The notes beneath the pieces were generated by a model. It worked only from the letters and a program-made list of their open reading frames with translations, was not told the origin of the DNA and did no database searches. Below, in pieces: positions 19,992 through 57,939 of a stretch of 64,000 nucleotides of DNA. The stretch is taken from assembly GCA_944386175.1 (NCBI GenBank), contig CALXAB010000001.1:47645-111644 (forward strand), written 5' to 3'. The DNA comes from an uncultured Clostridia bacterium. GTDB lineage: Bacteria; Bacillota; Clostridia; TANB77; CAG-508. The translations under genes and the position numbers were made by a program. Numbering within the stretch: position 1 is the stretch's first letter; each line of letters starts with the position of its first letter.

Positions 19992-20094
19992 ATTTAATTC
20001 GACCTCTTTTCCTTATAACCAATTTATATCACAAAAAGCTAAATTTTCATAGTATTTTACCAATATTTCCAAACATATTTATCCTTAAATTTTA

Positions 20095-20345
20095 ATATAA
20101 TTTTATAAGTACACTTAGTGAACTTTTTCTTAAAAATCACTTCTTTTTTGTTCATTTAGTGAACTTTTGCACTCTAAAAAGCGTTTTTTATCCATTCACT
20201 CGGTGAATTTTTGCATCAGATCTGCATAAAATTTTTGTTTTTTTATTAACTCTTGAAGGCTTGCCCTTCAATGTGTATATGCGTTGCGTAATGCACGCTA
20301 TCCTGCCTTTAGTATTCACTTTAGTTCACCTTATCAAAATTAATT
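20095..20345. repeat. Remnant (right half) of the parS-like palindrome array family, with no recombinase attached
   Basis: About 85-90% identical to the distal 210 bp of the arrays at 36380-36890, 43200-43625 and 50940-51350, including the shared terminus ...TTAACTCTTGAAGGCTTGCCCTTCAATGTGTATA...CCTGCCTTTAGT. Confidence 0.7.
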
Positions 20346-29317: not shown

Positions 29318-29329
29318 TCTAACTCCTCC

Positions 29330-35450: not shown

Positions 35451-36125
35451 TTAAAATTCCCTTATATCATATCTAAAATATAGTCCATCCATTTTTATTT
35501 TATGAAAATCTTTTATTATATTTTCTTTGACTTTATTAAAATCTTTTCCTACTCTTCTTAATGCAAATACTCTACCTCCTGAAGGATATAGTATATTATT
35601 TTTTGATATTATATGTTCCCCTATAATATCTGTTGTATTTTTTACTTTGTTCATACCTAAAATTGGTTCATCAAAACTACTTCTTTCTACTTCTGGATAT
35701 CCTGCTGAAAATCCATACATTGCTATAGAAAAGCAGTCTTTTTTCCAACAATTATTTATCTTTTCTACATCTTCATAAAAGAAATTTATTATATCTATAA
35801 AAGGTTTATTCAGTAACCCTAATAAAGCTAACCACTCTGGATTACCTGTTCTTGTATTATATTCTAATACATATACTTTTTTATCTTCGGTAACCATTAT
35901 TCCTATATATAAAATATAGTTATATTCCATATTTTCTTTTTTCATACCTCTTATAGTTGGTTCTATTATATCTTTTTTTAATTGTTCTTCTTTTTCTGTG
36001 CTAACTCTTGCATAAGCACATACTCTTAAATTACCTTTTATAACTTCTCCTGTTGTTCTATTAATTCTTCCTTTTTTCTTCTCTATTACTTGTACTTTCA
36101 AATTTAACCTCTCTTTCTCAAGCAT
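35451..36125 (-). pseudogene. purD: Chimeric ORF: the first 48 codons of a large serine recombinase, including the catalytic RVST, fused in frame to the C-terminal ~175 aa of phosphoribosylamine-glycine ligase (PurD)
   Basis: The N-terminus MLEKERLNLKVQVIEKKKGRINRTTGEVIKGNLRVCAYARVSTEKEEQ is identical, apart from one I-to-N substitution, to the start of the intact recombinase at 48681-50573. The remainder (VLEYNTRTGNPE...YGFSAGYP...SGGRVFALRRVG...GLYFRYDIR) aligns with the PurD ATP-grasp C-terminus. Confidence 0.7.
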
Positions 36126-36168
36126 AGAGAATCTTTATGTTTGTATTATATACTAAAATTTTATATTT

Positions 36169-36354
36169 TTAAATACCTATGTGGATTAAATTATATTCTT
36201 TTAAAATATTTTGTTTTAGTTCTAAATATCTTTTCTCTTTAATTAATCCTGCATTATATGTTTTATTTAGAATTGCTATTTTAATGCTACAATTAAAAAT
36301 ATTTTCATTTAGTTTTACATTTTTCGTATTATCAAATTTTACTTCGTACAACAT
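36169..36354 (-). CDS. Small conserved protein of 61 aa encoded immediately upstream of the serine recombinases
   Basis: A strong RBS agaggagga precedes it. It is paralogous to 50617-50802 and, more distantly, to 42882-43058. Confidence 0.5.
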   Translation of the reverse strand: MLYEVKFDNTKNVKLNENIFNCSIKIAILNKTYNAGLIKEKRYLELKQNILKEYNLIHIGI

Positions 36355-36379
36355 AAAAATCCTCCTCTGCTTGAATTAA

Positions 36380-36890
36380 ATTTCAAAAAAGAGCGACAAA
36401 AAAGCCAGCCGGCTAGCTAGACTGACTTCTTTGTCTTACATTTTTTGATAATACAATTATATTATGCTGTTCTATAAAGTTCAATTCCCGTTTTTTTCCC
36501 TTTTTTCTATTTTAATTGATAAAGCGTTGACTTTTTAGTTAGTACACTAAGTAAACTTGTGTAAAAATTTTTTTAATTATTTTTTACTTTATTATTTTTG
36601 AGTTCACTTAGTGTACTTTTTGTTTTGTATTTAAAAACCTTAGTTCACTTAGTGAATAAAAAACTAACTTTCAAGTACACTTGGTGAACTTTTTCTTAAA
36701 AATCACTTATTTTTCGTTCATTTAGTGAACTTTTGCACTCTCAAAGGCATTTTTTAGCTGTTCATTCGGTGAATTTCCGCATCAAATTTGCTTAAAATTT
36801 TTGTTCTTTTGTTAACTCTTGAAGGCTTGTCCTTCAATGTGTATAGGCGATGTGTGCACACTCGCTTTCCTGCCTTTAGTATTGTTTTTT
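36380..36890. repeat. Array of parS-like 15-bp palindromes (GTTCAC-N3-GTGAAC and variants, 6 sites) plus a conserved hairpin
   Basis: Sites TAGTACACTAAGTAAAC, GTTCACTTAGTGTAC, GTTCACTTAGTGAAT, GTACACTTGGTGAAC, GTTCATTTAGTGAAC and GTTCATTCGGTGAAT. The region is about 95% identical to 50940-51350. Confidence 0.8.
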
Positions 36891-36891
36891 A

Positions 36892-38670
36892 TCATATATT
36901 AATTACTTTTTGTTGACTCATATATAATTTATAATAATTTCCTTTTATGCTCATTAATTCTTCATGAGTTCCATATTCTACTATTTCTTTATCTTTAATA
37001 AAAAATATTCTGTCACTATCCACTATTGTAGATAATCTATGAGCAATCGTTATTACAGTTTTATTTTTAACCATTTCTTTTGTTAGATTTTGTAGCATTT
37101 TTTCTGTTTTTACATCAATCTTACTTGTTGCTTCATCGAAGATTAATATTTTAGGGTTATTAATAATTGTTCTTATATAGCATAATACCTGTTTTTCTCC
37201 ATCTGATAGATTTTTTCCATTACTACTTAATTTTGTATTGTATCCATCTTCTAAACTCATTATCCAATTATGTACATTCAATCTTTTACATATTTCTATT
37301 ACTTTATCATCAGTTATATTTTCATTTCCATATTTTAAATTTTTCATAATGCTTGTACTAAATAAGTAATTTTCTTGTTGCATAATAGCTATCTGTTTTC
37401 TAAGTCTATTTAGTTTTATATTTCTAACATCTTCTCCATCAATAAAAATATTTCCTGAATCTATATCATAAAATCTTCCAATTAGATTTGTAATAGTGGT
37501 TTTTCCACTTCCTGTACTACCTACAATAGCTACTTTTTCTTGCGGTTTTACTTTAAAAGATATATTATTTAAAACTTTATTATTTTCTATATAAGAAAAA
37601 CTAACATTTTTAAATTCTATTTCACCTTTTATTTTGATGTCTTTAGCATCTATTTTATCTTTTATATCTATTTTTTCATCCATTGTTTCAAATATTCTCT
37701 CTAAATATGTAATTGAATTAATAAAATCATCTAATGTTTTAAATAAGTCTTCTATAGGTTGCCAAAAGTTAGATGAATAACTTCCCATAGCAACAATAGT
37801 TCCAACTGATGTAGTTGGATATAAAAACATCGCTCCTACAAAATATATTGTTGCAGTTACCCAATGTGACATTGTTTGTACACTACACCATCCAATATTG
37901 CCAAATTTTATTTGTTTGCAACTTGCATCTTTCCAACTTCTACTTAAATCATTAAATATATCTTCATTCTTTTCTTCTCTATTAAATGCTTGGGTTATTT
38001 GCATTCCTTTTAATGTTTCTAATAGATATGCATTAGTATTAGAATTTTTATTATTAATTAGTAATTTATTTTTTCTCTTTATCTTAGCTGTTGAAGCAAA
38101 TATAAAAATAAGTATTACTATTCCAACTAATGCGATTAATGTTAGTTTCACACTTGTTAAAAACATAAATATCAGAATAATAAGCATATTAAATATGTTT
38201 AAAAATGTTGTTACTAATTTATCTGTAATTAGAGTAGAAACATCTTCTGCATATTCTGTTAGTCTAACTAGTATTTTTCCATGAGGTCTTGTGTCGTAAT
38301 AATTAACTGATAAATACTGAATATGTGAAAACAAATCATTTTTTATATCTTCTACAATATTTTGATTTACTTTAGCCAACATTTTTTTATACACTTTAGT
38401 TACAATAATAGACAATAATACTAAAAATAATGCTAATAATATTATGATAAACAATTTTTCATAATCGCTATTAGGAATAACATCATCGATTACATATTGT
38501 AGTATTTTAGTGATAAATAAAGTAGCTATAATAGATATACAATTTAAAATAAATATAATAATCAATTTTGATTTATATTTTTTTATGTATGTTAAACCTC
38601 TTTTATAATTAGAAAGACTGAATGAAGTATTTTTTTCATCTTGGTCATATTTGTTTACACTCATATACAT
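36892..38670 (-). CDS. ABC exporter, fused permease-ATPase subunit (type I exporter half-transporter)
   Basis: Six TM helices followed by an NBD with Walker A GSTGSGKTT, signature LSDGEKQ and Walker B ILIFDEA. Confidence 0.85.
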   Translation of the reverse strand: MYMSVNKYDQDEKNTSFSLSNYKRGLTYIKKYKSKLIIIFILNCISIIATLFITKILQYVIDDVIPNSDYEKLFIIILLALFLVLLSIIVTKVYKKMLAKVNQNIVEDIKNDLFSHIQYLSVNYYDTRPHGKILVRLTEYAEDVSTLITDKLVTTFLNIFNMLIILIFMFLTSVKLTLIALVGIVILIFIFASTAKIKRKNKLLINNKNSNTNAYLLETLKGMQITQAFNREEKNEDIFNDLSRSWKDASCKQIKFGNIGWCSVQTMSHWVTATIYFVGAMFLYPTTSVGTIVAMGSYSSNFWQPIEDLFKTLDDFINSITYLERIFETMDEKIDIKDKIDAKDIKIKGEIEFKNVSFSYIENNKVLNNISFKVKPQEKVAIVGSTGSGKTTITNLIGRFYDIDSGNIFIDGEDVRNIKLNRLRKQIAIMQQENYLFSTSIMKNLKYGNENITDDKVIEICKRLNVHNWIMSLEDGYNTKLSSNGKNLSDGEKQVLCYIRTIINNPKILIFDEATSKIDVKTEKMLQNLTKEMVKNKTVITIAHRLSTIVDSDRIFFIKDKEIVEYGTHEELMSIKGNYYKLYMSQQKVINI

Positions 38671-40379
38671 TCCTCCATATTATTTACTTGAATATCATAA
38701 ATTTCTTTATATTCTCCATTCTTATTCAATAATTCTTCATGTGAACCACTCTCTATGATTTCTCCGTTTTTCATTACAAATATGACATCAGCATTTTTTA
38801 CAGAAAGAATTTTTTGTGCAATTATAATTTTTGTACATCTATATTTCAAATTATTAATATTTTCAGTAACTTCTAATTCAGTTTCAAAATCTAGTGCGGA
38901 AGTTATATCATCTAATATTAATATACTAGGTCTCTTAGCTAATGCTCTTGCCAAAGATAAACGCTGTTTTTCACCTCCTGATAAACTCACTCCATTTTCT
39001 CCTATTATTGTATTAATATCCTCTGGTAAATCAAATACATAATCAGCTTTAGCCAATTTTAAACATTTTTTTATTTCTTCTTCTTTTAAATCTTCATTTC
39101 CAAAACTAACATTATTGGAAATAGTATCAGAAAACAGAAAAGGAGTTTGAGAAACATAACCGATATTTTTTCTTAATGATTTTAATGTATATGTATTTAT
39201 TAAATTATCGTCTATTTCTATCTTTCCACTTGAACATTCTATCAGTCTTAACATCAGTTTTCCAATAGTAGATTTTCCACTCCCTATTTCTCCAATAAAT
39301 GCATAAGTCTTATTGGGCTTTAAATCTAAATTAATATTTTTTATAACTTTCCTATTATTAAGTTTGACATTAACCCCTTTAAAAATAATATTTTCCCAAT
39401 TATTTAATATTAAACTTCCTTTATCTTTTATTTTAGGTTCAGTTTCTAATAATTTTCTTACTTTTGATACAGATACTCTAAATTGTTGCCATTCATTTAT
39501 AAAACCACTTAATTCTATAAACGGTTTTCTTATAGTGCCTATAAAAGAATTAATAATAATAAATTGTCCCATTGTCGTGTAACCTTTTATAACAAATATT
39601 CCCCCAAATAAAGTTAATAATATTTGCATACAATATGATAAAAATGTGACTATATTGTCATAAGAGATATTCATATTTTGTATTTCTAAATTCTTATTTT
39701 TCAAATTTCTATTCTTTACTTTAAAGTTATCTATTTCTTTTTGTTCTGTTGCAAATGTTTTGATTAATCTATTTCCTTCTATATTTTCTTGTATATAATT
39801 ATTTAGGTTTGACAAACTTTCTCTTTGATCTTTATATAATTCCTTTGATTTTTTTATATGTTTTTTAGATATAACTGCAATTATAGGAGTAGGTATTAAA
39901 ATAATTAGTGTTAAAATTGGGTTTATATATAGGCAGTAAATTGTAGTTAAAATACTAGTAGTTAACATGCTTATAGATTGTTTTATCACAAAACACATAT
40001 TATGATGAATAATGCTATTATCTGTTGTTAAAAGCGTGCTTATTTCTCCCAAAGTTTTTTCTTCGTAAAAATCTTGATTTAATTCATTCAATTTTTTATA
40101 ACATTCAACTTTTAACTTATGTGCTAAATTAAATCTAACATGATCCATTATTAATATTCCAAAATAAGTTATCAGCCTACCTATAAAATACATACTAATA
40201 GATATAATAAAAAGGTATGGAATAATAGAAAAATTACTCTCATATATACCTTTATCTATTATTTCTCCTAATAGTATAACTGGTAATATTTTAGAAATTC
40301 CTCCACCTAATATTATCATTAAATTTGAAATCCAATATCTAAAATTATATTCTTTAATAAATTTTAATACCCATCTCAT
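38661..40379 (-). CDS. ABC exporter, fused permease-ATPase subunit (heterodimer partner)
   Basis: Six TM helices followed by an NBD with GEIGSGKST, LSGGEKQRLSLARAL and ILILDD. Confidence 0.85.
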   Translation of the reverse strand: MRWVLKFIKEYNFRYWISNLMIILGGGISKILPVILLGEIIDKGIYESNFSIIPYLFIISISMYFIGRLITYFGILIMDHVRFNLAHKLKVECYKKLNELNQDFYEEKTLGEISTLLTTDNSIIHHNMCFVIKQSISMLTTSILTTIYCLYINPILTLIILIPTPIIAVISKKHIKKSKELYKDQRESLSNLNNYIQENIEGNRLIKTFATEQKEIDNFKVKNRNLKNKNLEIQNMNISYDNIVTFLSYCMQILLTLFGGIFVIKGYTTMGQFIIINSFIGTIRKPFIELSGFINEWQQFRVSVSKVRKLLETEPKIKDKGSLILNNWENIIFKGVNVKLNNRKVIKNINLDLKPNKTYAFIGEIGSGKSTIGKLMLRLIECSSGKIEIDDNLINTYTLKSLRKNIGYVSQTPFLFSDTISNNVSFGNEDLKEEEIKKCLKLAKADYVFDLPEDINTIIGENGVSLSGGEKQRLSLARALAKRPSILILDDITSALDFETELEVTENINNLKYRCTKIIIAQKILSVKNADVIFVMKNGEIIESGSHEELLNKNGEYKEIYDIQVNNMEECI

Positions 40380-40821: not shown

Positions 40822-41004
40822 TTATGTGTTTCCACTTACCACATCTGCAACTACTTTAACTTTCACATCTGAATTTTGATGTTTTTCTCTTCCATATCTT
40901 CCTTTTTTCTCGAAAGTTATAATCTCTGAAAACATATCAAATTCAAGTATTACCTGTCCTGTTTTAGTTGTAGCACTGCCACACATTCCACATGTGTTGG
41001 TCAT
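40822..41004 (-). CDS. Questionable small ORF (60 aa, MTNTCGMCGSATTK...) inside the conserved transporter leader
   Basis: A paralogous sequence at about 58370-58560 is conserved in translation, but that copy has no start codon. It could be a leader or regulatory RNA rather than a protein. Confidence 0.2.
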   Translation of the reverse strand: MTNTCGMCGSATTKTGQVILEFDMFSEIITFEKKGRYGREKHQNSDVKVKVVADVVSGNT

Positions 41005-42679
41005 CTCTGGTTGCAGTAAGTTTTAAATGTTGTTTATCTCCTGTTGCAGTAAAATTGTCTTTACAATTTATTTCTGTTCCGTTTTTACAAATAAACCTTA
41101 TTGTATATGGATTTATTGTACCATTTTCTAATGTTTCCCCAATTATTACTTTCTCTATTATACATTCAAAAATATCTTTATCAAAATTTTTCATTATTTC
41201 CATATCTTTAAATAAACCTTTAAACTTGTTTAATCTATGTTTAATACTTTCATTTCTGTTTGTGTCTTTTAGTAGGTTTTGTATTTTCTGTTCTACTTTT
41301 AATAGTTCTATGTTTAGCTCATCATATTTTAAAGTATATTGTTCTTTATTTATTCTGCCTTCTAAGTTTAGTTCTAATAGATTATTAAGTTTCTTGTTTA
41401 TTTTCTCTTTGTCTTTTTCTAGCTTATTTACTACTGTTTCTGTAGTATTTTCTTTTAAGACATTTTCTATTTTTTCTAAAAAATCTTCTACTACTTTTTT
41501 ATTGTTGTTACAGAGTATTCTATATCCTTGTACAAAACAATCTTCTAGTATTTCTTCTGGTATTGCTTTACAGTATGGGCATTCTTCTTTTCCATGTTTT
41601 GCTCTTTTGATACATTGCCATACTGCTTTTTCATATTTTCTTTTTGAGTTCCAGTTTCTTCTTGTAAGTAAGCTACCACAAAATCCACAATATAATTTAC
41701 TACTAAAAGCATATTTCTTACTATAGTTATTATTTCTTCTTCCTGTTTCTCTTGTTCCTACTCGTTTTATTCTTATTTCTTGTACTCTATCAAATAACTC
41801 TTTACTAATAATTGGCTCATGATGTTCTTTTATATAATGCTTTTCTGCTTCTCCTAAATTGCTTAATCTTTTATGTGATATTGGATCTATTGTAAATGTT
41901 TTTCCCATTAGCACATCTCCAATATATTTTTCATTTTTTAGTATTCCTCTTATTGTTGATTCGTTCCAATTATCATTACCTTTTGGGGATTTAATGCCTT
42001 TTGCTTTTAGTTCTTTTGCTATTGTACTTGAACCTATTCCGTCTACATATCTTTCAAATATATATTTTATAACTTCTGCTTGTTCCTCATTTATAGTTAT
42101 CTGTTTTGTTATTAAATCATAGTTATAACCGTAACAACCATTATAGCCAATTAACTCTCCCCTGTCTTTCTTCATTTTTAGTCCAAGCAATACATGTGAA
42201 GATATGTTCTCACTTTCTTGTTGTGCCATAGCACTTAATACTGTTAGTAGCATTTCTCCTGTTCCTGATAGAGTATTTAGATTTTCTTCTTCAAATAAAA
42301 CTGCAATGTTCTTTTCTTTTAGCATTCTTACATATTTTAAAGTATCTAATGTGTTTCTAGCAAATCTTGATATGGATTTTGTTAAAATCATATCAAATTT
42401 TCCAGACATTCCATCTGTTATCATTTTCATAAAGTCTGTTCTTTTAAAATCTAATGTGCCACTTATAGATTCATCTGCATATATTCCTGCAAATTGCCAT
42501 TCAGATTTGCTATTGATTTTTTCATCATAATACTTTAATTGTGATTGGTAACTATTTAATTGTTCTTTATTTCCTGTACTAACTCTACAATATGCACATA
42601 CTCTTAATCTTTCTTTGATTGTTGTACCTGTTACTCTGTTAATTCTTCCGTTTGTTTTCTCTATGACTTGAATTTCCAT
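40964..42679 (-). CDS. Large serine recombinase (resolvase domain plus recombinase and zinc-ribbon domains), 571 aa
   Basis: Catalytic RVCAYCRVSTG...YQSQ motif near the N-terminus, a C4 zinc ribbon (CGFCGS...C..C) and a coiled-coil C-terminal region. It is 60-70% identical to the recombinase at 48681-50573. Confidence 0.85.
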   Translation of the reverse strand: MEIQVIEKTNGRINRVTGTTIKERLRVCAYCRVSTGNKEQLNSYQSQLKYYDEKINSKSEWQFAGIYADESISGTLDFKRTDFMKMITDGMSGKFDMILTKSISRFARNTLDTLKYVRMLKEKNIAVLFEEENLNTLSGTGEMLLTVLSAMAQQESENISSHVLLGLKMKKDRGELIGYNGCYGYNYDLITKQITINEEQAEVIKYIFERYVDGIGSSTIAKELKAKGIKSPKGNDNWNESTIRGILKNEKYIGDVLMGKTFTIDPISHKRLSNLGEAEKHYIKEHHEPIISKELFDRVQEIRIKRVGTRETGRRNNNYSKKYAFSSKLYCGFCGSLLTRRNWNSKRKYEKAVWQCIKRAKHGKEECPYCKAIPEEILEDCFVQGYRILCNNNKKVVEDFLEKIENVLKENTTETVVNKLEKDKEKINKKLNNLLELNLEGRINKEQYTLKYDELNIELLKVEQKIQNLLKDTNRNESIKHRLNKFKGLFKDMEIMKNFDKDIFECIIEKVIIGETLENGTINPYTIRFICKNGTEINCKDNFTATGDKQHLKLTATRDDQHMWNVWQCYN

Positions 42680-43788: not shown

Positions 43789-45240
43789 TTAACTATTTAT
43801 AAAAAATTGAATTATTGCAAATATTCCCATATCTGAAATTGTTTTTATTGCATCTACATTAGCAATAACTTTATAAGGGTGATGAATTACTAAATCTAAA
43901 TAGTTTTTCATTCCTTCATTATTAAAACATGTCTCCCATGCTCTTGAAATAGTATCGTCATCAATAAGATTTTGTTTATCTATTGATATTTTATTTATAA
44001 TCTTCTCTAATCTCAAGTCCAAATTATTATTTGCAGATTTCCATTTTTCCCATTTTCCTTTGTTTATTAAAAAATAGATGCTTGATTGTTCTAATAATGA
44101 GCGGATTAAAAAGCAATATGATATTGGGTAATTTTTATATAAATTTCCAAATGATAAATGCTGAATTTCATAGCATAGATTTTTAATCCCTTTAGCTCTA
44201 TCATTACTATATTTTAGTTTGCTACAATTAATATTTTTAAATAAAATACTATTGTCTTTTCTTGTTAATCTGATTTTATTAAATGCTATACTTTCATTTA
44301 TTTTATTTTTTACTATTTCACTTTCATTGGCATTATTATGTTTTTCTTCTCTACCATTAGAAAATATCTTCATTTGTTCATTTTTATTTTCTAAATTTTC
44401 ATTTATTTTATCTTTGCTGTCAAACCTTTCACTAACATTATTTTCTATATTGCCATACAAATATTTTTCTATATTAGCATTATTTTTTATTGTGTTACTT
44501 GTAATCCTACCACTTACAATATCTTGAACAATTCGTAATACTTTCTTGTCTAATTCATTTATTGAAGACAATGGCATTAAAACATTGTTATTAAAAGAAA
44601 TATTCAGATATTCTTTACCAACTTTTGAAGAAACAATCTTTTCAAACTTATTTACTGAAAAATTATTGTCAACTCCATCAAATGCTTTTTTACAAAATCC
44701 TTGTAATTGTGAAAATATATTTTTTACTCCCATTTTATCTTCAAATCTTTTTATTGAAGCTGTATCCCATTTTAAAGCTCCTGTATCAGTTGTATGTACA
44801 TTTCTTATATATCCAGCACAATCTTCAAATGAAGTGGCCACATAACAAGGAATTTGAAAATATTCTTCTCCTTGAATTCCTGCACTCATTGCATATATGC
44901 TTCTTATTTGTGTATATGAAAAGTATTTAAAAGATTCTACCAATTTAGGATTTTTTAAGATTTTCATTGCTGTTAATCTTCTATTACCATCCCATGCCAC
45001 AAATTTTTCTTTTTTCTCATCATAAGTGACTGTAACTATTGATTGTGGATACCAACCATTTGTGTAAATATCACTAATTAACTTATGCATTGCCTTCGCT
45101 TCTTTAGAATTTCTCACCAATTGTTGCATTATAAAAAGTTCATCCGCTATCATAATTTGTGTATGTCTTGGATTCTCTGGATTTACTAATATTTTTTCTA
45201 TGTCTATTAGTTGATGTTCTCTCATATATAATTCCCCCAT
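43789..45240 (-). CDS. ParB/Srx-superfamily (DUF262-like, DGNRR motif) protein with a long C-terminal extension
   Basis: LVNPENPR and VAWDGNRRLTAM are the ParB N-terminal-domain boxes. A possible His-Me/HNH-like DLVIHHP lies near the C-terminus. Confidence 0.55.
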   Translation of the reverse strand: MGELYMREHQLIDIEKILVNPENPRHTQIMIADELFIMQQLVRNSKEAKAMHKLISDIYTNGWYPQSIVTVTYDEKKEKFVAWDGNRRLTAMKILKNPKLVESFKYFSYTQIRSIYAMSAGIQGEEYFQIPCYVATSFEDCAGYIRNVHTTDTGALKWDTASIKRFEDKMGVKNIFSQLQGFCKKAFDGVDNNFSVNKFEKIVSSKVGKEYLNISFNNNVLMPLSSINELDKKVLRIVQDIVSGRITSNTIKNNANIEKYLYGNIENNVSERFDSKDKINENLENKNEQMKIFSNGREEKHNNANESEIVKNKINESIAFNKIRLTRKDNSILFKNINCSKLKYSNDRAKGIKNLCYEIQHLSFGNLYKNYPISYCFLIRSLLEQSSIYFLINKGKWEKWKSANNNLDLRLEKIINKISIDKQNLIDDDTISRAWETCFNNEGMKNYLDLVIHHPYKVIANVDAIKTISDMGIFAIIQFFINS

Positions 45241-45294
45241 TTTTTACCTTATAAAGTCTTTCGTAAATCCCTCATCATTCTTAAGTATATTATT

Positions 45295-46812
45295 CTATTT
45301 TTTTGCAATATATTTTTGATTTTTAGTATTTGGTTTATCTGGTATAGTCATTTGCAATTTTCCACTATCTAATAATGGTCTCATGTATTTTAAATAGAAA
45401 TTTCTTCTGTCTTTTAATCCTAAATATGCCATTATTTCTTTTGTTGTTTTTGGTTCTCTACAAAATTCTAATATTTTATCTTGATGGGTATCTTGGTGGA
45501 TATCTTGGTGGGTTGTTGGTCGGTCTTTTATCTCATTTTCAAATCTATCATGTATAAATATTGTTGTAATAAAATAATCTCTTGTTTCATTTGTTTCAAA
45601 CTCTGGTTCTTTTGAGCCATTATTTTTCAATGCTCTTTTTATTTTTGGAATACCTGTATTTCTACCTTCTGTTAATTTTAATTCTTTTAAAAACTCTCCA
45701 ATTCTACGATTTCTATATTTTCTTGCTATCATATTTTTATCTTCAATTGATTTTTCGCTTATTGAACGGTCTGGTCCTGGATAACTTACAATATGAATTC
45801 TATCTTCCATTATTCTTACTTCTACTGGTTCCCTTACATCATATCCTCTATGATAAACTGCATTTACTAATGCTTCTTCTATTGCTTGATATGGATAATT
45901 AAAAAATCTTACAGCCTCCGCTTGTCCATCTATCTTTAAAATTTTTTCCATAATAACAGTATTTTTAATATATGTTAAAGCACTTTTTATCATAGTATCA
46001 ATAGGTCCTTTAAATATTTGCTCTGTCATATCATCACCTTCTGGACCGTTTCTTAAATCTACTACTTCTATTTGTGAATATGGAAAGAATTTTTGTGGCT
46101 CATCATTAAAAAACATTAACCCTACATTTAAAGGTTTCATATATTCTGGTGTTCCATCTACTATTCTCATACTTTTACATAAATCTATAAAACTCATTGT
46201 TTCGGATTCTTTTAATAGTTCACTCTTTATCTCATATAAGTAATTTTGAATTAGTGGTAGTTTTAAATCTTGAATTTGTGCCTCATGATTCATTCTATCA
46301 TCGAATGGTATTACTCTTGCCATATCATATAATTCTTTTTGCTCTACTTCTGTAGCTTTTACTGTACTGGACATTTTTCTAATATAATATGAATATCCTT
46401 TTGAAAAATCTTTATCTAGTGTTGTTGGACATTTGTATGGTCTATTCTGACCACCAAAACACCATACTACTAGTATATTTTTACCTTTATATTGAGCAAC
46501 ATCTACAATTGGTGTATAGGCTGGCTGTATCATTTTACATTTTGTTAGCAATTCTTTTTGAATTTTATCTATTTCAGATAATTGTAGCCCTTCAAAATCT
46601 TTCTTAGGTCTACCATTTGCTTCTTCAACACCTATTAAAATATATCCTCCACCCCAGTTATCTATATCATTTGCAAAAGCACAAATTGTATGTAATATTG
46701 GTTCTGGATTCCAGTTTCTCTTTAATTCTAATCTTGCATTTTCTACAATGTTTTCATTTAGTATATTTTCTATACTTGTAGGTAATCTCATCTTCTCACC
46801 TTTCTTTTTCAA
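45295..46812 (-). CDS. COG2865-type Schlafen-like (AlbA_2) ATP-binding / HTH protein
   Basis: An N-terminal AlbA_2/Schlafen-like DNA-binding domain (LELKRNWNPEPILHTICAFANDIDNWGGGYILIGVEE), a central HATPase_c_4-like region and a C-terminal HTH. Confidence 0.55.
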   Translation of the reverse strand: MKKKGEKMRLPTSIENILNENIVENARLELKRNWNPEPILHTICAFANDIDNWGGGYILIGVEEANGRPKKDFEGLQLSEIDKIQKELLTKCKMIQPAYTPIVDVAQYKGKNILVVWCFGGQNRPYKCPTTLDKDFSKGYSYYIRKMSSTVKATEVEQKELYDMARVIPFDDRMNHEAQIQDLKLPLIQNYLYEIKSELLKESETMSFIDLCKSMRIVDGTPEYMKPLNVGLMFFNDEPQKFFPYSQIEVVDLRNGPEGDDMTEQIFKGPIDTMIKSALTYIKNTVIMEKILKIDGQAEAVRFFNYPYQAIEEALVNAVYHRGYDVREPVEVRIMEDRIHIVSYPGPDRSISEKSIEDKNMIARKYRNRRIGEFLKELKLTEGRNTGIPKIKRALKNNGSKEPEFETNETRDYFITTIFIHDRFENEIKDRPTTHQDIHQDTHQDKILEFCREPKTTKEIMAYLGLKDRRNFYLKYMRPLLDSGKLQMTIPDKPNTKNQKYIAKK

Positions 46813-46842
46813 ATGTCCGTTTTTTCGGACTTATAAAATTTT

Positions 46843-47259
46843 TTATTTCATATAATCTCTAATTTTAAATAATAACTCATCATCTAATATCTCTGTTGAG
46901 GCAAAATTATTTAAAGTATTATTATCTTCCCAATCTATATCAAATAAATTTATCACTTTATCATATCTTGGGAAAGCATGATAATGAACAAATGGATCAT
47001 GCATCATCATAATCATATAATTAAACTTTATTGCTCCAAACCTGTCTCTACATAGTTCTTCATACCATTTTATTACTTTTGGAAATTCAGCACCTTCATC
47101 TTGTAACATTCCACTTACATTTTGTGTTTCTCTTTTCAATAAAATAACTACATCTCCTAATGTTGTTTGTTTTTGCCTAACACAAACAATCCAATACTTA
47201 AACTCTTTAATACAAAGTTCCTCTGGTCTAAATTTTTTCATAAATTCTAAATTGTCCAT
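46843..47259 (-). CDS. HIT-like small hydrolase (tentative)
   Basis: 138 aa with DPFVHYHAFP, which resembles the histidine-triad HxHxH motif. Confidence 0.3.
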   Translation of the reverse strand: MDNLEFMKKFRPEELCIKEFKYWIVCVRQKQTTLGDVVILLKRETQNVSGMLQDEGAEFPKVIKWYEELCRDRFGAIKFNYMIMMMHDPFVHYHAFPRYDKVINLFDIDWEDNNTLNNFASTEILDDELLFKIRDYMK

Positions 47260-47282
47260 TGATAAGACCTCCTCTTACATTT

Positions 47283-47920
47283 TTATTTTTTAAACATATC
47301 ATTTAAATTATGTGATATTAATTTTAAATTATCTATATTTTCCCCTTCAATAACATAAGGCGTACAATGTTGTATTTGCAATTCAAATACTCTTTCTCTT
47401 GGTTCAATCTTAAACATATTTAAAAATAAGCACCTTATTGCATGATAATGTGAGAATATTCCTATTGTTATATCATCATTAAAATCTAACGAATCAAGAA
47501 ATCTTTTACATCTTATACTAACATCAGTATAGTTTTCTCCTTTTGGTGCTTTTTGTACGAAATCTGTTCTAAATTTATTAAATTTTTCATCTGTAATATA
47601 TTCATTATATTCATTAGAAGCTAATAAATCCTTCTTTTCCTTCAAATATTCCTAAACATCTTTCTCTTAAATCTTTACTTAAATTTAGTTCATATCCTGG
47701 TTTAGCTAATTTTGCTGTTTGTATTGCTCTCATTAAATCTGAAGAATAAACTTTTTTAATACTTTTAATAATATCATTTTTTGCTAAAATACTTGCTTGA
47801 TTCTTTCCTTATTCTGTTAAACTCGTCAATTCATTATCTAAAGTTCCTGTGTATAAAGCTGTTCCTTCATCATTTATCACGTTTGCCATTGTTTGTCCAT
47901 GTCTAATTATAACTATTCTC
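47283..47920 (-). pseudogene. Histidine phosphatase (phosphoglycerate-mutase-like) gene broken by frameshifts
   Basis: The N-terminus MRIVIIRHGQTMANV (RHG catalytic motif) at 47920 runs into a stop after about 37 codons. Downstream pieces in other frames end with the 120-aa ORF. Confidence 0.55.
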
Positions 47921-47921
47921 A

Positions 47922-48506
47922 TTAATTGTTACCTTCCTTTTTATTCTTTATTGTTTCAATATATTCTTTAACATATGCGTTCATATCTCTATCAAATAGT
48001 TCTTTTGAATATTCTAATCTTAATAGTTCTTCTCTTAAGATTGGCAAATATACTTCTATAATTTCATCTAACGCCTCTGGTTCTTCTTCAATACATCTTT
48101 TCCATCTATTTTTTCCGATATAAGCAATTTTGTCTGCATCTCTTACAATTTTTCCTTCAACTGTTGGAGGAATACATTTTCTCTTATGATTTACTACTGC
48201 TGAATAACATTGTTCTATTATTTCATTACTATAACTTAACTTTTCCATTTCTTCTTTTAGAATTCTTCCGCTTTCTTCTTCATGTCCTTTATCTGTAACA
48301 GACCTTCCAACATCATGCCAATATGCAGCTATAATACATATTTCTTTATTAGCTGGTATCTCTTCTAATAATTCTTTTACATAGTTTACGACATCAATAG
48401 TATGACCTATAAAATGTAGAGGATCATTTTCACATACTTTCATTTTTTCTATAGCTATATCAATTAATTTTTTATTTTTATTATATATTTCTTCGTAAAT
48501 ATCCAT
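47922..48506 (-). CDS. HD-domain phosphohydrolase
   Basis: H...HD signature (IGHTIDVV...AAYWHDVGR). 194 aa. Confidence 0.65.
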   Translation of the reverse strand: MDIYEEIYNKNKKLIDIAIEKMKVCENDPLHFIGHTIDVVNYVKELLEEIPANKEICIIAAYWHDVGRSVTDKGHEEESGRILKEEMEKLSYSNEIIEQCYSAVVNHKRKCIPPTVEGKIVRDADKIAYIGKNRWKRCIEEEPEALDEIIEVYLPILREELLRLEYSKELFDRDMNAYVKEYIETIKNKKEGNN

Positions 48507-48680: not shown

Positions 48681-50573
48681 TTATACTACTCCGCACACCA
48701 TGTCAACTTCTATCGTTACTTTAATTTTATGATTTTCTGTTCTTTTAACCTTATTTTTGCCTTTTCTATCAAAACTAATAAAATCTTCAAAAGCAGTAAA
48801 TTGGGCTATTGTATCGAATCTTTCAGACATAGCACCGAGCAACACTCCACATGGCTCACACCCAGTCTGTAGATAGTTTTGGCTTACCTCGTATGATGAC
48901 TGTTGCAAACTACCTTGATTTTTATCTTTTTGACATTTGATTTCGTTTCCAGATTTTAGGATAAATGTTATTACTCTTGGATTTACATCTCCATTTTGTT
49001 CTTTTTCTCCTATTATAACTTTTTCTATCATTAATTCAAAAACATCTTTATCAAATGTTGGCATTATTTCATCATCTTTAAATAGACTTTTAAACTTGTT
49101 TAATCCTTGATTTAAACTAATTGAATCTTCTAACTCTAGTTGTAAATGTTCTTGCTCTTTTTCTATTTTGTTTATCTTGTTTTGTAATTTTGCCTTTTTA
49201 TCTTTTAATGTTTCAAGTGTTATTGTTCCATTCAAGTTTAAATCAATTAACTTGTCTATCTTTTCTTTTAAAGTTTGTTTTTCTTCTTCTAATTTTTTAA
49301 TAGAACTTTCATTACTTTCTTCTTGTATGATTTCTTCCATTTGTTTTAAGAATGTTTTGATTAGTTTTTTGTTATTATTACATAAAAGTTTATAACTTTC
49401 TGTAAATGCTTCTTCTATAATGTTTTCTTTCATTGCTTTACAATATGGGCAATTTTCTTTTCCATGTTTTACAAATTCCATACAATGCCATACCGTAATA
49501 CTATTTTTTGTTCCAGAGTGCCAGTTTCTTCTTGTTAATAAACTTCCACAAAAACCACAATATATTCTACTACTAAAAGGATATTTTCTGCTAAAGTTTC
49601 CTTTTCTTCTTCCAGAGCCTCGTACTCCTCCTCGCTTTTGTAATATTTCTTGTGCTTGATTAAACATTCTTTCTGAAATAATTGGTTCATGATGTTCTTG
49701 TATGTAATACTGATTTTCTTCTCCCATATTGACTACTCTTCTATGTGAGATTGGATCTGTTGTATATGTTTTTCCTTGTAAGACATCTCCTTTGTATTTT
49801 TCGTTTTTCAAAATACCTCTTATAGTTGAGTCATGCCATTGTTTCTTTCCTGTTGGTGTTTTATATTTCATAGCAGTTAGTTCTTTTGCAATTGTTGTGC
49901 AACCTACTCCTTGACAGTATCTTTCAAAGATATATCTTACTATTTCTGCTTCTTGATAATTTACTGATATTTTCTTTGTTTCTTTATCATATACATATCC
50001 TAAACATCCATTATATCCAATTAATTCTCCTCTTTTTTGTTTCATCTGTAATCCTAGTTTTACATGAGAAGATATATTTTCGCTCTCCTGCTGTGCCATT
50101 GCACTCATTACTGTTAGCATTACTTCGCCAGATAATTCTAAAGTATTGATGTTTTCTTCTTCAAAATAAATAGTGATTCCTTTTTCCTTTAATAATCTTA
50201 CATACTTTAAAGTATCTACTGTATTTCTTCCAAATCTTGATATTGATTTTGTAATTATCATGTCAAATTTGTTTTCTGTTGCATCTTGCATCATTCTCAT
50301 AAAGTTATCTCTTTTATAGTCAAGTGTTCCTGTTATCCCTTCATCTGCATAAATCCCTACATAAGTCCAATCACTTCTTGATTTTATTTTTTCTTCATAA
50401 TATTTTAGCTGAGAATTATAACTATTTATTTGTTCTTCTTTTTCTGTACTAACTCTTGCATAGGCACATACTCTTAAATTGCCTTTTATAACTTCTCCTG
50501 TTGTTCTATTAATTCTTCCTTTTTTCTTCTCTATTACTTGTACTTTCAAAATTAACCTCTCTTTCTCAAGCAT
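48681..50573 (-). CDS. Large serine recombinase, 630 aa
   Basis: Catalytic RVCAYARVSTEKEEQ...YNSQ motif, a zinc-ribbon CGFCGS...CPYC and a coiled-coil. It is paralogous to 40964-42679. Confidence 0.85.
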   Translation of the reverse strand: MLEKERLILKVQVIEKKKGRINRTTGEVIKGNLRVCAYARVSTEKEEQINSYNSQLKYYEEKIKSRSDWTYVGIYADEGITGTLDYKRDNFMRMMQDATENKFDMIITKSISRFGRNTVDTLKYVRLLKEKGITIYFEEENINTLELSGEVMLTVMSAMAQQESENISSHVKLGLQMKQKRGELIGYNGCLGYVYDKETKKISVNYQEAEIVRYIFERYCQGVGCTTIAKELTAMKYKTPTGKKQWHDSTIRGILKNEKYKGDVLQGKTYTTDPISHRRVVNMGEENQYYIQEHHEPIISERMFNQAQEILQKRGGVRGSGRRKGNFSRKYPFSSRIYCGFCGSLLTRRNWHSGTKNSITVWHCMEFVKHGKENCPYCKAMKENIIEEAFTESYKLLCNNNKKLIKTFLKQMEEIIQEESNESSIKKLEEEKQTLKEKIDKLIDLNLNGTITLETLKDKKAKLQNKINKIEKEQEHLQLELEDSISLNQGLNKFKSLFKDDEIMPTFDKDVFELMIEKVIIGEKEQNGDVNPRVITFILKSGNEIKCQKDKNQGSLQQSSYEVSQNYLQTGCEPCGVLLGAMSERFDTIAQFTAFEDFISFDRKGKNKVKRTENHKIKVTIEVDMVCGVV

Positions 50574-50616
50574 AGAGAATCTTTATGTTTGTATTATATA
50601 TTAAAATCTTATATTT

Positions 50617-50802
50617 TTAAATACCTATATGAGTTAAATCATATTCTTTTAAAATATTTTGTTTTAGTTCTAAATATCTTTCCTCTTTAATTAGTCCTGC
50701 ATTATATGTTTTATTTAGAATTGCTATTTTAATGCTACAATTAAAAATATTTTCATTTAGTTTTACATTTTTCGTATTATCAAATTTTACTTCGTACAAC
50801 AT
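50617..50802 (-). CDS. Small conserved protein of 61 aa upstream of a serine recombinase
   Basis: About 95% identical to 36169-36354. Start at MLYEVKFDN. The upstream extension in the ORF track is not supported. Confidence 0.5.
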   Translation of the reverse strand: MLYEVKFDNTKNVKLNENIFNCSIKIAILNKTYNAGLIKEERYLELKQNILKEYDLTHIGI

Positions 50803-50939
50803 AAAAATTCTCCCTTGCTTAAATAAAATTTCAAAAAAGAGCAATAGAAAAAGCCAGTCGGCTAGCTTCGACTGACTTCTTTGTCTGACATTTTTTGATA
50901 ATACGATTATATTATGATGTTCTATAAAGTTCAATTCCC

Positions 50940-51350
50940 GTTTTTTTCCCTTTTTTCTATTTTAATTGATAAAGTGTTGATTTTTTAGTTAGTACACTAA
51001 GTGAACTTGTGTAAAAATTTTTTTAATTATTTTTTACTTTATTATTTTTGAGTTCACTCGGTGTACTTAGTTTTTTATTATATCAATTTTTAGTACACTT
51101 AGTGAACTAATTATAAATTATTTCATAAAATTTAGTACACTTGGTGAACTTTTTCTTAAAAATTACTTATCTTTCGTTCATTTAGTGAACTTTCACACTC
51201 TAAAAGAGATTTTTTAGTCATTCATTCGGTGAATTTTTGCATCAAATTTGCTTAAAATTTTTGTTCTTTTATTAACTCTTGAAAGCTTGACCTTCAATGT
51301 GTATATGCGTTGCGTGATGCACGCTATCCTGCCTTTAGTGTTCACTTTAT
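50940..51350. repeat. parS-like palindrome array (the full copy, contiguous with the intact recombinase module)
   Basis: About 95% identical to 36380-36890 over roughly 0.9 kb when the small ORF and the recombinase 5' end are included. Confidence 0.8.
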
Positions 51351-51355
51351 ATCCT

Positions 51356-53209
51356 TTAATTAGTATTAGATTCTGATGTAGTTTTATTTACAACACCCAA
51401 GTTCTTAATACTATCTTGTAAACTTTCATCTGGAATAAAGTTTCTACAATTTTCTAATTTATAAAATTCCCCTAATTTATCTATATCTTTATATAAGAAA
51501 TAAAAATAGTTTTTTAATGCATTTTCTGTTGTTTCTAATCTAGGTCTTAATGAGTATGCTCTTTTCTTCTTATAGAAATAGTTTTCATTAAATAATTTAT
51601 ATAAATTATTTAGTTCATCACTATCTAATGTTATTTTGTGAAATCTCGTTTCTTTGAAAATATAATTTATTTTATCAATGTCTATATTTAAATCATCAAC
51701 ATATTCTCTAATGTTATTCTTGCTTATTATAGTTATTATAGATAATGTAATACTCATAATTATATAATCCATAAATTCTTTTGATAAATTCATTGTCCTA
51801 AATATTTTTATTGATCTAATATCATTGTTTTCAATCATTTTTAAAAACATTATAATGATTGGTTCACCCTTTATAAGATATGGTATAAATATTTCTTCTT
51901 CATGTATATTTTTTCTTTGCAGAAAATCATTAATACTTCTATCTGGAAATTTTTCCCTATGTTCCATTAATCTAATATTATCGTATAATTCTTCTAGTAC
52001 TCTGTACTTTTCATTTTTAGTTAAATTCTTATTTTCAATAACACATGTATATACAGATTCTAAATATCTATTACTAGTAAACATATATATAGAATCATAT
52101 TTATATAATCTACAATAGCTAAAATCTATAACATTTTCATATAGAAAAATTAAATACATATCTAATTTAATAATTCTCCATACAAGATTTATATATTCTT
52201 TTTCTTGACTTTCAGTTTGAATATATTTTATTTTATCTATTAAATTTGCAATATTTTGCATTTTATAATCATCATGAACAGGCACAAATTCATAATAAGC
52301 AAACATTGTATAAAGTTTACAATATATATTTGCAGCCTCTATATGTTTATTATATAAAATCAAATGCGAAACTATTTCATGTATAGCACTAATCAAATCA
52401 CTTCTAAAAATCATTTCTGTATAATATTCTTGAAGAATTTTTTTGTTATTAAATAAAGTTAAATCTATAAGATTCATTATGTTGTGAATATTATAATTAT
52501 AATCATTATCATTTTTTTGTATTAATACTAATGTTTGATTCTTTAAGTCTGTGATATCTTTGCACCCATGGCTATTTAGAGGAATCGCCTTTTTTATATG
52601 CTTCTTTTGTTTCTCTAAATACATACATAGTAAACTGTTTCCAAACCAATTTTTATGAGTGTAAAACCAAATCATTTTAATACACATATAAAATATAACT
52701 ACAAGAGAAAGCAAAAAATTTATTAATATTAGTATTTGACTACTGCCTTTTAGGCATTGTATAATATTTACAAATAATAGGAGAACTAAAATTATAAAAA
52801 TTTTTAGCAATGATAAAAAACTATTGTTAGGGAAAATAACATTAATATGTTTTTTTCCCAATATATAACTTTCAGACAACCCAGATAATAAAGATATTAC
52901 TGAAATTATTATCAATGTATTACTAATTTGAGCTACTAATATATCATTTGAATCAATGTTAAATTCTTTATTCAAGTCTAATATATTTTCAATTTTGTAA
53001 TCATTAATAGCATAAAAAATTACAAACATACTAAATATAACTATACTAAACATAAAAATAATCATTAAAAAATTCATAATTTTTTGTTTAACTACAAAAT
53101 ATTTTTTATTATCATATATTTTATACCATTTTAAAAATTCTTTTATTTTATAATTTTTATTTAAAATAAATCTTCTTATTTTTTTTAATTTACCATTAGA
53201 ATCTTCCAT
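51356..53209 (-). CDS. Hypothetical polytopic membrane protein of 617 aa with a large cytoplasmic C-terminal domain
   Basis: About five predicted TM helices in the first 200 aa. No recognisable domain. Adjacent to an AbiE pair. Confidence 0.4.
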   Translation of the reverse strand: MEDSNGKLKKIRRFILNKNYKIKEFLKWYKIYDNKKYFVVKQKIMNFLMIIFMFSIVIFSMFVIFYAINDYKIENILDLNKEFNIDSNDILVAQISNTLIIISVISLLSGLSESYILGKKHINVIFPNNSFLSLLKIFIILVLLLFVNIIQCLKGSSQILILINFLLSLVVIFYMCIKMIWFYTHKNWFGNSLLCMYLEKQKKHIKKAIPLNSHGCKDITDLKNQTLVLIQKNDNDYNYNIHNIMNLIDLTLFNNKKILQEYYTEMIFRSDLISAIHEIVSHLILYNKHIEAANIYCKLYTMFAYYEFVPVHDDYKMQNIANLIDKIKYIQTESQEKEYINLVWRIIKLDMYLIFLYENVIDFSYCRLYKYDSIYMFTSNRYLESVYTCVIENKNLTKNEKYRVLEELYDNIRLMEHREKFPDRSINDFLQRKNIHEEEIFIPYLIKGEPIIIMFLKMIENNDIRSIKIFRTMNLSKEFMDYIIMSITLSIITIISKNNIREYVDDLNIDIDKINYIFKETRFHKITLDSDELNNLYKLFNENYFYKKKRAYSLRPRLETTENALKNYFYFLYKDIDKLGEFYKLENCRNFIPDESLQDSIKNLGVVNKTTSESNTN

Positions 53210-53265
53210 ATTTTGCTCCCATTTTCATATATTCATTTAATTATTCTATGTATGTAGTTATTAGA

Positions 53266-54701: not shown

Positions 54702-54810
54702 AAATTTTCTCCTTTGCCGTTTTCATTCGTAAATATTATATCATTTACGAATAAAAACGGCAACAATATTTAAAAAATTAATAGCACAAAATTAAAATTT
54801 GTGCTAAAAT

Positions 54811-55296: not shown

Positions 55297-55325
55297 TTTC
55301 TTCTCCTTATTTAAATAATAAAAAA

Positions 55326-56481: not shown

Positions 56482-56498
56482 ATTTTAATTCACCTTCG

Positions 56499-57494: not shown

Positions 57495-57500
57495 TAATAT

Positions 57501-57833: not shown

Positions 57834-57939
57834 ATTCTATTCTCCTAATCTTTACTGTATATAATATATCATAAATTCCTTAATTTTACAATGAAATCGC
57901 CAATATTTTAATATTACATATATCTTTACATTTGCTTAA

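What the first reader, a model, noticed from the sequence alone, without database searches (positions are those of the whole stretch)
35451..36125. In-frame fusion of a serine-recombinase 5' end to the 3' end of purD
The first 48 codons, including the catalytic Ser motif RVST, are identical apart from one I-to-N substitution to the intact recombinase at 50573. The reading frame then continues seamlessly into the C-terminal ATP-grasp/C-domain of PurD (GNPE...SGGRVFALRRVG...GLYFRYDIR). There are two readings. A recombinase-bearing element may have inserted into purD, with the rest of that element later deleted. Or the element's own crossover site lies inside the recombinase 5' coding region. No purD 5' half is present in the window. 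The host purD appears inactivated unless a second copy exists.
Basis: seen in the sequence. Interest (0 to 1): 0.6.

Follow-up and report, generated by a model that had tools for sequence, protein, structure and literature searches.

The report
Deletion scar fusing recombinase and PurD-like genes
The chimeric gene is real, but it is most likely an ordinary deletion scar at the inner edge of a stack of recombinase-borne defence-gene cassettes, where a 10-base chance identity joined a dead recombinase gene to the remains of a PurD-like accessory gene.

Summary
The ORF at 35451-36125 (-) is as described. Recombinase codons 1-48 differ by one residue from the intact large serine recombinase (LSR) rec1 at 48681-50573. 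They run in frame into the last 176 codons of a GARS/PurD-family protein. The same junction is assembled in 7 independent metagenome samples, so it is not a chimera.

- This LSR family crosses over at a 12-nt core, CATGTGGAGTGT, in the 3' end of its own gene. That core marks three cassette boundaries in the window (58537, 48853, 40994) and is absent from the fusion point.
- The fusion point lies in a 10-nt identity, A GAA GAA CAA (35982-35991). Rec1 and the closest intact PurD-like alleles share it in the same frame (E-E-Q). About 18 identities of this length are expected by chance between the two genes.
- No reciprocal PurD-N::recombinase product was found.
- A second family member (P0070) is the same kind of in-frame fusion, at a 14-nt identity whose two parent sequences are both in this window.

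Best reading: a microhomology-mediated deletion removed the rest of the innermost cassette's recombinase and adjacent DNA up to codon 250 of the target gene. That gene is a sub-threshold PurD paralogue in a histidine-related accessory cluster, not demonstrably housekeeping purD.

The parts
35451..36125 (-). Chimeric ORF: 224 aa from ATG, 216 aa from the TTG at 36101. It joins LSR codons 1-48 to PurD-like codons about 251-426.
   Evidence: The identical product is called on 10 or more contigs.
35982..35991 (-). Junction microhomology A GAA GAA CAA, shared by rec1 and intact PurD-like alleles in the same frame (E-E-Q). The deletion breakpoint lies within it.
   Evidence: About 18 exact matches of 10 nt or more are expected by chance between the two genes.
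35451..35981 (-). Remnant of the PurD-like gene: the last 176 codons plus the stop codon. It is 85% identical to intact P0129 residues 251-425.
35977..36883 (-). Backbone module copy A1 of the innermost cassette (U1): recombinase 5' end, 61-aa small ORF (36169-36354) and operator-like repeat region (36602-36773). It is 91-96% identical to 50425-51349.
36892..40379 (-). Cargo of cassette U1: two ABC exporter genes.
40825..40996 (-). Boundary between U2 and U1: core variant CATGTGGAATGT (40994-40983) followed by tail B1. Here the tail is out of frame with rec2.
40964..42679 (-). rec2, the LSR of cassette U2 (571 aa). It is 58% identical to rec1 and about 91% identical in DNA to the 620-aa recombinase of strain L028.
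43789..48506 (-). Cargo of U2: a PD-Lambda-5_A-like gene, a Schlafen/AlbA_2-HATPase gene, an HD-domain gene and others.
48681..50573 (-). rec1, the intact LSR of cassette U3 (630 aa from ATG). The core is at 48853-48842 and tail 1 at 48851-48684.
50425..51349 (-). Backbone module copy A2: rec1 5' end, small ORF and operator-like repeats.
51356..57833 (-). Cargo of U3: a 617-aa protein, AbiEii/AbiEi, acetyltransferases, a Sel1-like gene, an APH-like kinase and a 110-aa ORF.
57907..58539 (-). Outer boundary of the array: chromosomal left flank, then the core (58537-58526), then orphan tail B2 (58535-58368) and a shared non-coding stretch (repeat B2).
   Evidence: The same left flank carries a different cassette in L028 and L029.
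20086..20323 (-). Separate relic of the backbone's distal repeat region, with no small ORF or recombinase after it. This is a second probable deletion scar.

Best explanation
The window holds a head-to-tail stack of three small integrative cassettes on the minus strand: U3 58537->48842, U2 48842->40983, U1 40983->35982. Each was built as tail, cargo, operator-like repeats, small ORF and large serine recombinase. They were stacked by site-specific recombination at a 12-nt core (CATGTGGAGTGT) that lies in the 3' end of the recombinase ORF.

The finding is the inner end of this stack. In the innermost cassette U1, a deletion ran from recombinase codon 48 to codon about 250 of a co-oriented PurD-like gene. 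It removed the rest of that recombinase, its 3' core junction and the DNA in between. In relatives, the genes directly upstream of the PurD-like gene are S66 peptidase, a 339-aa protein, a HisS paralogue and a PanC-like gene.

The two ends were joined within a 10-nt chance identity, A GAA GAA CAA, which encodes E-E-Q in both genes. That is why the product is seamless and in frame.

The chimera keeps only 48 residues of the recombinase and lacks the N domain and most of the ATP-grasp domain of the ligase, so it is most likely a non-functional relic.

Shown: the anatomy, the family's real crossover core, the microhomology, the lack of a reciprocal product and the reproducibility of the junction. 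Inferred: that the event was a single deletion, its length, and loss of function.
For: (1) The family's crossover site is elsewhere. Recombinase C-termini are conserved up to ...EPCGV and then diverge. At DNA level the core CATGTGGAGTGT occurs exactly three times in the window, each at a cassette boundary. Strains L028 and L029 carry a different cassette at the identical chromosomal left flank, switching sequence right after the core. An unrelated array (L088) is bounded the same way.

(2) The closest intact alleles (L017, L018) read GAT ATA GAA GAA CAA TTA AAA AAA GAT ATA ATA. Rec1 reads GAA AAA GAA GAA CAA ATA AAT. The fusion reads GAA AAA GAA GAA CAA TTA AAA AAA.

(3) Identities of this length are abundant by chance: a mean of 18 matches of 10 nt or more against codon-shuffled controls.

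(4) There is no reciprocal product. None of the 64 hits to the PurD-like N-half carries recombinase domains, and none of the top 120 rec1 relatives carries GARS_N. The window has no N-half, PanC-like, HisS-paralogue or S66 gene.

(5) There is a precedent in the same family. P0070 is rec1 residues 1 to about 389 fused in frame to the C-terminus of the Schlafen-like cargo protein. Both parents are in this window and share the 14-nt ATAGAAGAAGCATT in frame. P0053, P0055, P0056, P0059 and P0072 are further internally deleted or fused recombinases.

(6) The junction is assembled in 7 independent samples, with copy-specific SNPs, and three long contigs span it.

(7) The target cluster decays independently elsewhere: a 5' truncation in L039 and a poly-A frameshift in L005.
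Against: - No conspecific genome with an undeleted U1 or an intact PurD-like gene was found. The parental sequence at the junction is therefore inferred from alleles only 83-85% identical in protein.
- It is not shown that the array's original right-hand junction lay next to the PurD-like cluster. Relatives with the intact cluster have no cassettes or cores within 10 kb, so the deletion could be large or could follow another rearrangement.
- P0053 and P0055 have a recombinase-internal deletion starting one codon from the same point. This hints that the stretch is a preferred breakpoint for a reason I did not establish.
- The 176-codon remnant is still an open frame, so some residual function or a very recent origin cannot be excluded.
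Confidence: 0.8

Rival explanations
1. A cassette (or the whole array) first inserted into the PurD-like gene itself, at a secondary or illegitimate site. The rest of that cassette and the 5' half of the gene were lost later.
For: The ancestral position of the array's right-hand junction is unknown. LSRs are known to use pseudo-sites (general knowledge). A recombinase remnant does directly abut the gene.
Against: It needs at least two events where one deletion suffices. The junction has no resemblance to the 12-nt core. The break is inside the recombinase ORF, which is not a cassette end in this family. No PurD-like 5' half turned up fused to anything. The array's other end is a canonical, shared attachment junction.
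Confidence: 0.12
2. The element's own site-specific crossover site lies in the 5' coding region of the recombinase at about codon 48. The fusion is then one att junction of an integrated element.
For: A roughly 900-bp direct repeat ends exactly at codon 48 in both copies. The layout superficially fits tandem elements with a unit length of 14,448 bp. P0053 and P0055 break within one codon of the same point.
Against: The family's crossover core is at the 3' end of the gene and explains every other boundary, in three arrays. The predicted reciprocal junction (target 5' half joined to recombinase from codon 49) is absent from the window and from both database searches. An integrated element would lose its catalytic serine from the recombinase body. 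The 10-nt identity is no more than chance provides.
Confidence: 0.03
3. The junction is an assembly chimera produced by the roughly 900-bp repeat.
For: Several metagenomic contigs break inside the repeat or inside the recombinase genes.
Against: The exact 41-nt junction occurs in assemblies of 7 independent samples made with different assemblers. One strain variant carries an extra E-to-Q change downstream. Three long contigs run from rec2 or the ABC genes through the repeat and fusion into the his-like cluster. Copy A1 carries its own SNPs relative to A2.
Confidence: 0.02

Closest known systems
Microhomology-mediated (illegitimate, RecA-independent) deletion that creates chimeric pseudogenes. 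This comparison rests on general knowledge.
   Same: One copy of a short identity (10 nt here, 14 nt in P0070) is retained at the joint. The parents are co-oriented. There is no reciprocal product. The sequence context is purine-rich GAA-repeat codons in an AT-rich genome.
   Different: The parents cannot be shown in the same lineage. The deletion length is unknown.
SCC / SCCmec-type cassette arrays mobilised by Ccr large serine recombinases (PMC11470126)
   Same: LSR-borne cassettes are stacked head to tail at one chromosomal hotspot. Boundaries are marked by a repeated short core. The cargo is enriched in anti-phage defence genes: AbiE, PD-Lambda-5-like and Schlafen-like here, Hachiman in L088. 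Rec1's best NCBIfam matches are CcrC and CcrB.
   Different: Rec1 scores 133 and 129 bits against cut-offs of 900, so it is not a Ccr. The host is an uncultured gut Clostridia lineage. The attachment site is downstream of a membrane-protein gene, not rlmH. Each cassette has one recombinase at its extreme end. The core lies inside the 3' end of the recombinase ORF, so the last roughly 53 residues are exchanged at each junction.
Phosphoribosylamine--glycine ligase PurD (TIGR00877; Pfam GARS_N/A/C)
   Same: Intact relatives have the same three-domain architecture. The fragment aligns to profile positions 235-419.
   Different: The score is below the equivalog cut-off (261.9 versus 288). Identity to annotated PurD is about 28%. 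The neighbours are PanC-like, HisS-like, hisZ/G/IE and a CntK_N-acetyltransferase rather than pur genes.

Membership tests
Large serine recombinase (functional enzyme) | Resolvase catalytic domain, Recombinase domain and zinc-ribbon domain in one polypeptide | tested here: not met
   The fusion ORF has no Pfam recombinase hit. It keeps only residues 1-48, which include the RVST serine motif. Rec1 and rec2 have all three domains.
LSR att junction of this cassette family | The 12-nt core CATGTGGAGTGT (or a close variant) at the point where the flanking sequence changes | tested here: not met
   The core occurs only at 58537, 48853 and 40994. There is none at 35982-35991.
LSR att junction of this cassette family | A reciprocal junction exists (target 5' half joined to the rest of the element) | tested here: not met
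   There is no GARS_N plus recombinase protein among the 64 N-half hits or the top 120 rec1 hits. There is none in the window.
Microhomology-mediated deletion | A short identity is present in both parental sequences at the breakpoint and is retained once in the product | tested here: met
   A GAA GAA CAA is present in rec1 and in the L017/L018 alleles, and occurs once in the fusion. The parents are proxies, not the same lineage.
Microhomology-mediated deletion | The parental, undeleted arrangement is demonstrable in a close relative | tested here: inconclusive
   All contigs that carry the identical hisS or ABC proteins already carry the fusion. The P0070 analogue does have both parents in this window.
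PurD (TIGR00877 equivalog) | Score above the curated cut-off, and a purine-biosynthesis gene context | tested here: not met
   Intact P0140 scores 261.9 against a cut-off of 288. The context is a his-related accessory cluster.
SCC-type Ccr recombinase | Score above the NCBIfam CcrA/B/C equivalog cut-offs | tested here: not met
   Scores are 133, 129 and 90 bits against cut-offs of 900, 900 and 700. It works like an SCC recombinase but is not a member.
Site-specific cassette array (SCC-like behaviour) | Excision and circularisation of individual cassettes at the core | not testable with these tools
   This needs outward-facing PCR or read evidence. Only the static junctions and strain-to-strain cassette replacement were seen.

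The most novel reading that the evidence does not exclude
This LSR family places its crossover core inside the 3' end of its own ORF. Every integration, excision or stacking event therefore exchanges the recombinase's last roughly 53 residues: a conserved-pattern 'tail' when joined to another cassette, a short arbitrary end otherwise.

The tail could act as a built-in switch of recombinase activity or directionality. That would be analogous to integration-dependent truncation of phage repressors. It would make these arrays a serine-recombinase counterpart of an integron for defence genes in gut Clostridia.

The fusion in the finding would then be one of many decay products of such arrays.
Probability: 0.25. 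Interest if true: 0.6.

Novelty: new member of a known kind. Interest (0 to 1): 0.28.

Why it matters
For the finding itself, little is at stake. It is a fixed deletion scar that marks where a cassette's recombinase and part of an accessory biosynthetic cluster were lost. It should be annotated as a pseudogene, not as a recombinase, not as purD, and not as evidence of purine auxotrophy.

It is useful as a worked example. In AT-rich genomes, GAA-rich codon runs give in-frame microhomology deletions that mimic designed fusions or att junctions.

The surroundings matter more. They show an undescribed SCC-like system of stacked, recombinase-borne defence cassettes in uncultured gut Clostridia. Its crossover core sits inside the recombinase gene, which gives exact boundaries for mining cargo and a testable idea about control of directionality.

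Tried and rejected
- An exact look-up of the 224-aa ORF found nothing because gene callers use the TTG start. The 216-aa form P0001 worked.
- The first genome-contig scan, with the C-terminal fragment alone, confirmed no locus. The alignment-based scan found relatives but not the source species. The organism is therefore known only as an uncultured Clostridia lineage near Clostridium sp. CAG:440.
- I looked for an intact conspecific allele, or an undeleted U1, through exact look-ups of hisS, the last ABC ATPase, the 525-aa membrane protein and the U1 ABC exporter. Every hit already had the fusion, or a different outer cassette.
- I looked for cassette cores or tails next to the intact PurD-like cluster in relatives. 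None was found, so the ancestral adjacency remains unproven.
- I considered that the fusion lets the recombinase promoter drive the downstream his-like genes. I dropped this because hisS has its own perfect consensus promoter at 35311->35283.
- I considered that the 10-nt identity reflects attB mimicry. I rejected this because such matches are expected by chance.
- One literature search failed on syntax.

Full report
**1. What is at the coordinates**

ORF 35451..36125 on the minus strand encodes 224 aa. Its first 48 residues equal those of the 630-aa large serine recombinase (LSR) rec1 at 48681..50573, apart from I8N. There are 4 nucleotide mismatches in the 144 nt before the junction. From residue 49 the ORF matches the end of the GARS ATP-grasp domain and the GARS_C domain. 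It also aligns to purD profile positions 235-419.

The duplication is larger than reported. About 900 bp (35977-36883 versus 50425-51349, 91-96% identity) are shared. This stretch includes a 61-aa small ORF and a region full of palindromic 14-mers.

**2. The junction is not an artefact**

- The 216-aa form of the protein (TTG start) is called on at least 10 contigs.
- The exact 41-nt junction is in loci from 7 independent samples. One strain variant has an extra downstream substitution.
- Three long contigs run from rec2 or the ABC genes through the repeat and the fusion into the his-like cluster.

**3. What the partner gene is**

Full-length relatives (425-432 aa) have GARS_N, A and C domains. 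They score 261.9 bits against the purD equivalog cut-off of 288. They lie in a conserved cluster:

- S66 peptidase, a 339-aa protein, a HisS paralogue and a PanC-like gene upstream of the PurD-like gene;
- HisS, hisZ, hisG, a CntK_N-acetyltransferase, hisIE, a second HisS and VanY downstream of it.

The PanC-like and HisS-like neighbours are also below their equivalog cut-offs. This is an accessory cluster of divergent ligases, not a pur operon.

The window keeps everything from the PurD-like codon 251 downstream. It has no trace of the N-half or of the four upstream genes. The cluster is also broken independently in two other lineages: a different 5' truncation in L039 and a poly-A frameshift in L005.

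**4. Where this recombinase family really recombines**

Aligning rec1 relatives shows conservation up to ...NYLQxxxEPCGV, followed by abrupt divergence. Some continue into one of several homologous tails of about 53 aa. Others continue into short unrelated ends.

At DNA level the 12-mer CATGTGGAGTGT (one variant reads GGAATGT) occurs exactly three times in the window. All three copies are on the minus strand:

| Position | Junction |
|---|---|
| 58537-58526 | intergenic DNA after a 525-aa membrane-protein gene, joined to an orphan tail B2 |
| 48853-48842 | rec1 joined to tail 1 |
| 40994-40983 | rec2 joined to tail B1 |

Other strains (L028, L029) have the identical chromosomal left flank up to the core. 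They then continue into tail 1 and a different cassette, whose recombinase is about 91% identical in DNA to rec2. An unrelated array (L088-L090) is bounded in the same way.

The window therefore holds three cassettes stacked head to tail:

- **U3**, 58537->48842: AbiE and other cargo, with rec1.
- **U2**, 48842->40983: PD-Lambda-5-like and Schlafen-like cargo, with rec2.
- **U1**, 40983->35982: two ABC exporters and the truncated recombinase.

**5. The fusion point itself**

The core is absent here. Three sequences compare as follows:

- The closest intact PurD-like alleles read ...GAT ATA GAA GAA CAA TTA AAA AAA GAT ATA ATA...
- Rec1 reads ...GAA AAA GAA GAA CAA ATA AAT...
- The fusion reads ...GAA AAA GAA GAA CAA TTA AAA AAA...

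The joint therefore lies within the 10-nt identity A GAA GAA CAA (35982-35991), which is in the same frame in both genes. This explains the seamless reading frame.

Such identities are not special. Rec1 and a PurD-like gene share dozens of exact matches of 9 nt or more. Codon-shuffled controls give a mean of about 18 matches of 10 nt or more.

**6. No reciprocal product**

- None of the 64 database hits to the PurD-like N-half carries recombinase domains.
- None of the top 120 rec1 relatives carries GARS_N.

**7. The same thing happened elsewhere in the family**

P0070, an NCBI-sourced protein, is rec1 residues 1 to about 389 fused in frame to the C-terminus of the Schlafen-like cargo protein. 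Both parental genes are in this window, co-oriented and about 3.5 kb apart. They share the 14-nt ATAGAAGAAGCATT in frame at the breakpoints (49406 and 45870).

P0053, P0055, P0056, P0059, P0063 and P0072 are further internally deleted or fused recombinases. A fourth, recombinase-less relic of the backbone sits at 20086-20323. Decay of these cassettes by short-homology deletion is recurrent.

**8. Conclusion and uncertainty**

The most economical account is a single microhomology-mediated deletion. It ran from codon 48 of U1's recombinase into codon about 250 of the co-oriented PurD-like gene, and is fixed in every sampled member of this lineage.

Several things are not shown:
- the undeleted parent in the same lineage;
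- the length of the deletion;
- that the array's original right-hand junction lay beside the cluster. Relatives with the intact cluster have no cassettes nearby.

For that reason I keep about 12% on an earlier insertion into the gene followed by loss, a few per cent on the 5'-att idea, and about 2% on misassembly.

The chimera lacks most of both parent enzymes and is probably inert. Downstream, hisS has its own perfect consensus promoter, so no expression rationale is needed for the fusion.

**9. Comparison with known systems**

The scar itself is ordinary illegitimate recombination.

The surrounding array behaves like SCC/SCCmec-type tandem cassettes that carry defence genes (PMC11470126). 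Rec1's best NCBIfam matches are CcrC and CcrB, but far below cut-off. It therefore works like that system and is not a member of it.

The distinctive trait is that the core sits inside the recombinase ORF, so the C-terminal tail is exchanged at each junction. In L088 the core carries an in-frame TGA and the tail is a separate 54-aa ORF. In the window, rec2 is out of frame with its tail. Whether the tail must be translated as part of the recombinase therefore remains open.

Noticed in passing
window 58537-58526, 48853-48842, 40994-40983; L028:11637 and 17941; L088:2487 and 11686: The LSR family's crossover core CATGTGGAGTGT lies inside the 3' end of the recombinase ORF. The roughly 53-aa C-terminal 'tail' is therefore swapped at each junction. 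Tails fall into at least three homologous types that are 30-50% identical.
   Followed up: partly
window 36602-36773, 43278-43406, 50993-51189, 20109-20163: The palindromic 14-mer TWCACYRARTGWAC occurs 14 times against 0 expected. It is clustered upstream of each small-ORF-plus-recombinase module, and looks like an operator array for an unidentified regulator, possibly the 58-61-aa small ORF product.
   Followed up: partly
window 20086-20323: A 240-nt relic of the cassette backbone's distal region (87% identical to 51114-51349) has no small ORF or recombinase after it. It sits next to a second AbiEi/AbiEii pair (21768-23140). This looks like another deletion scar on the far side of the his-like cluster.
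   Followed up: partly
window 49406 and 45870; protein P0070: An NCBI-sourced protein is the in-frame deletion product of rec1 and the Schlafen-like cargo gene, joined at a 14-nt identity that is present in both genes of this window.
   Followed up: yes
window 40964-41060 versus L028:17900-18121; L088:11686-11857: Rec2 (571 aa) is frameshifted relative to its ~91% identical (DNA) homologue in L028 (620 aa), which leaves tail B1 out of frame. In L088 the core carries an in-frame TGA, and the tail is a separate 54-aa ORF starting at ATG.
   Followed up: partly
window 27998-35976; L015, L017 and L005: A conserved cluster holds sub-threshold PurD-like, PanC-like and HisS-like paralogues together with hisZ, hisG, hisIE, two HisS genes, a CntK_N (histidine racemase-like)-acetyltransferase fusion and VanY. 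It may encode a pathway for a histidine-derived product.
   Followed up: no
L039:1392-2331; L005:2880-2915: The PurD-like gene is inactivated independently in other lineages. L039 has a 5' truncation with a 102-aa membrane ORF in place of the upstream genes. L005 has a poly-A frameshift.
   Followed up: partly
window 43789-48506 and 51356-57833; L088:5505-9262; L028:11971-15648: Cassette cargo is dominated by defence or toxin genes: AbiEi/AbiEii, a PD-Lambda-5_A-like gene, Schlafen/AlbA_2-HATPase, Hachiman (HamA plus helicase), PemK and an Apyc1-like MBL protein. There are also an APH-like kinase and acetyltransferases.
   Followed up: partly
window 35283-35311 (-): A perfect sigma-70 consensus (TTGACA-17-TATAAT) lies in the spacer between the fusion ORF and hisS.
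   Followed up: no
L017:47-335 and 7380-7668 (also L018, L019): A 289-nt repeat beginning GTGCGACAGGCATG... lies both upstream of the S66 gene and downstream of the PurD-like gene in relatives. It may be the 5' end of a group II intron-like or other structured element.
   Followed up: no
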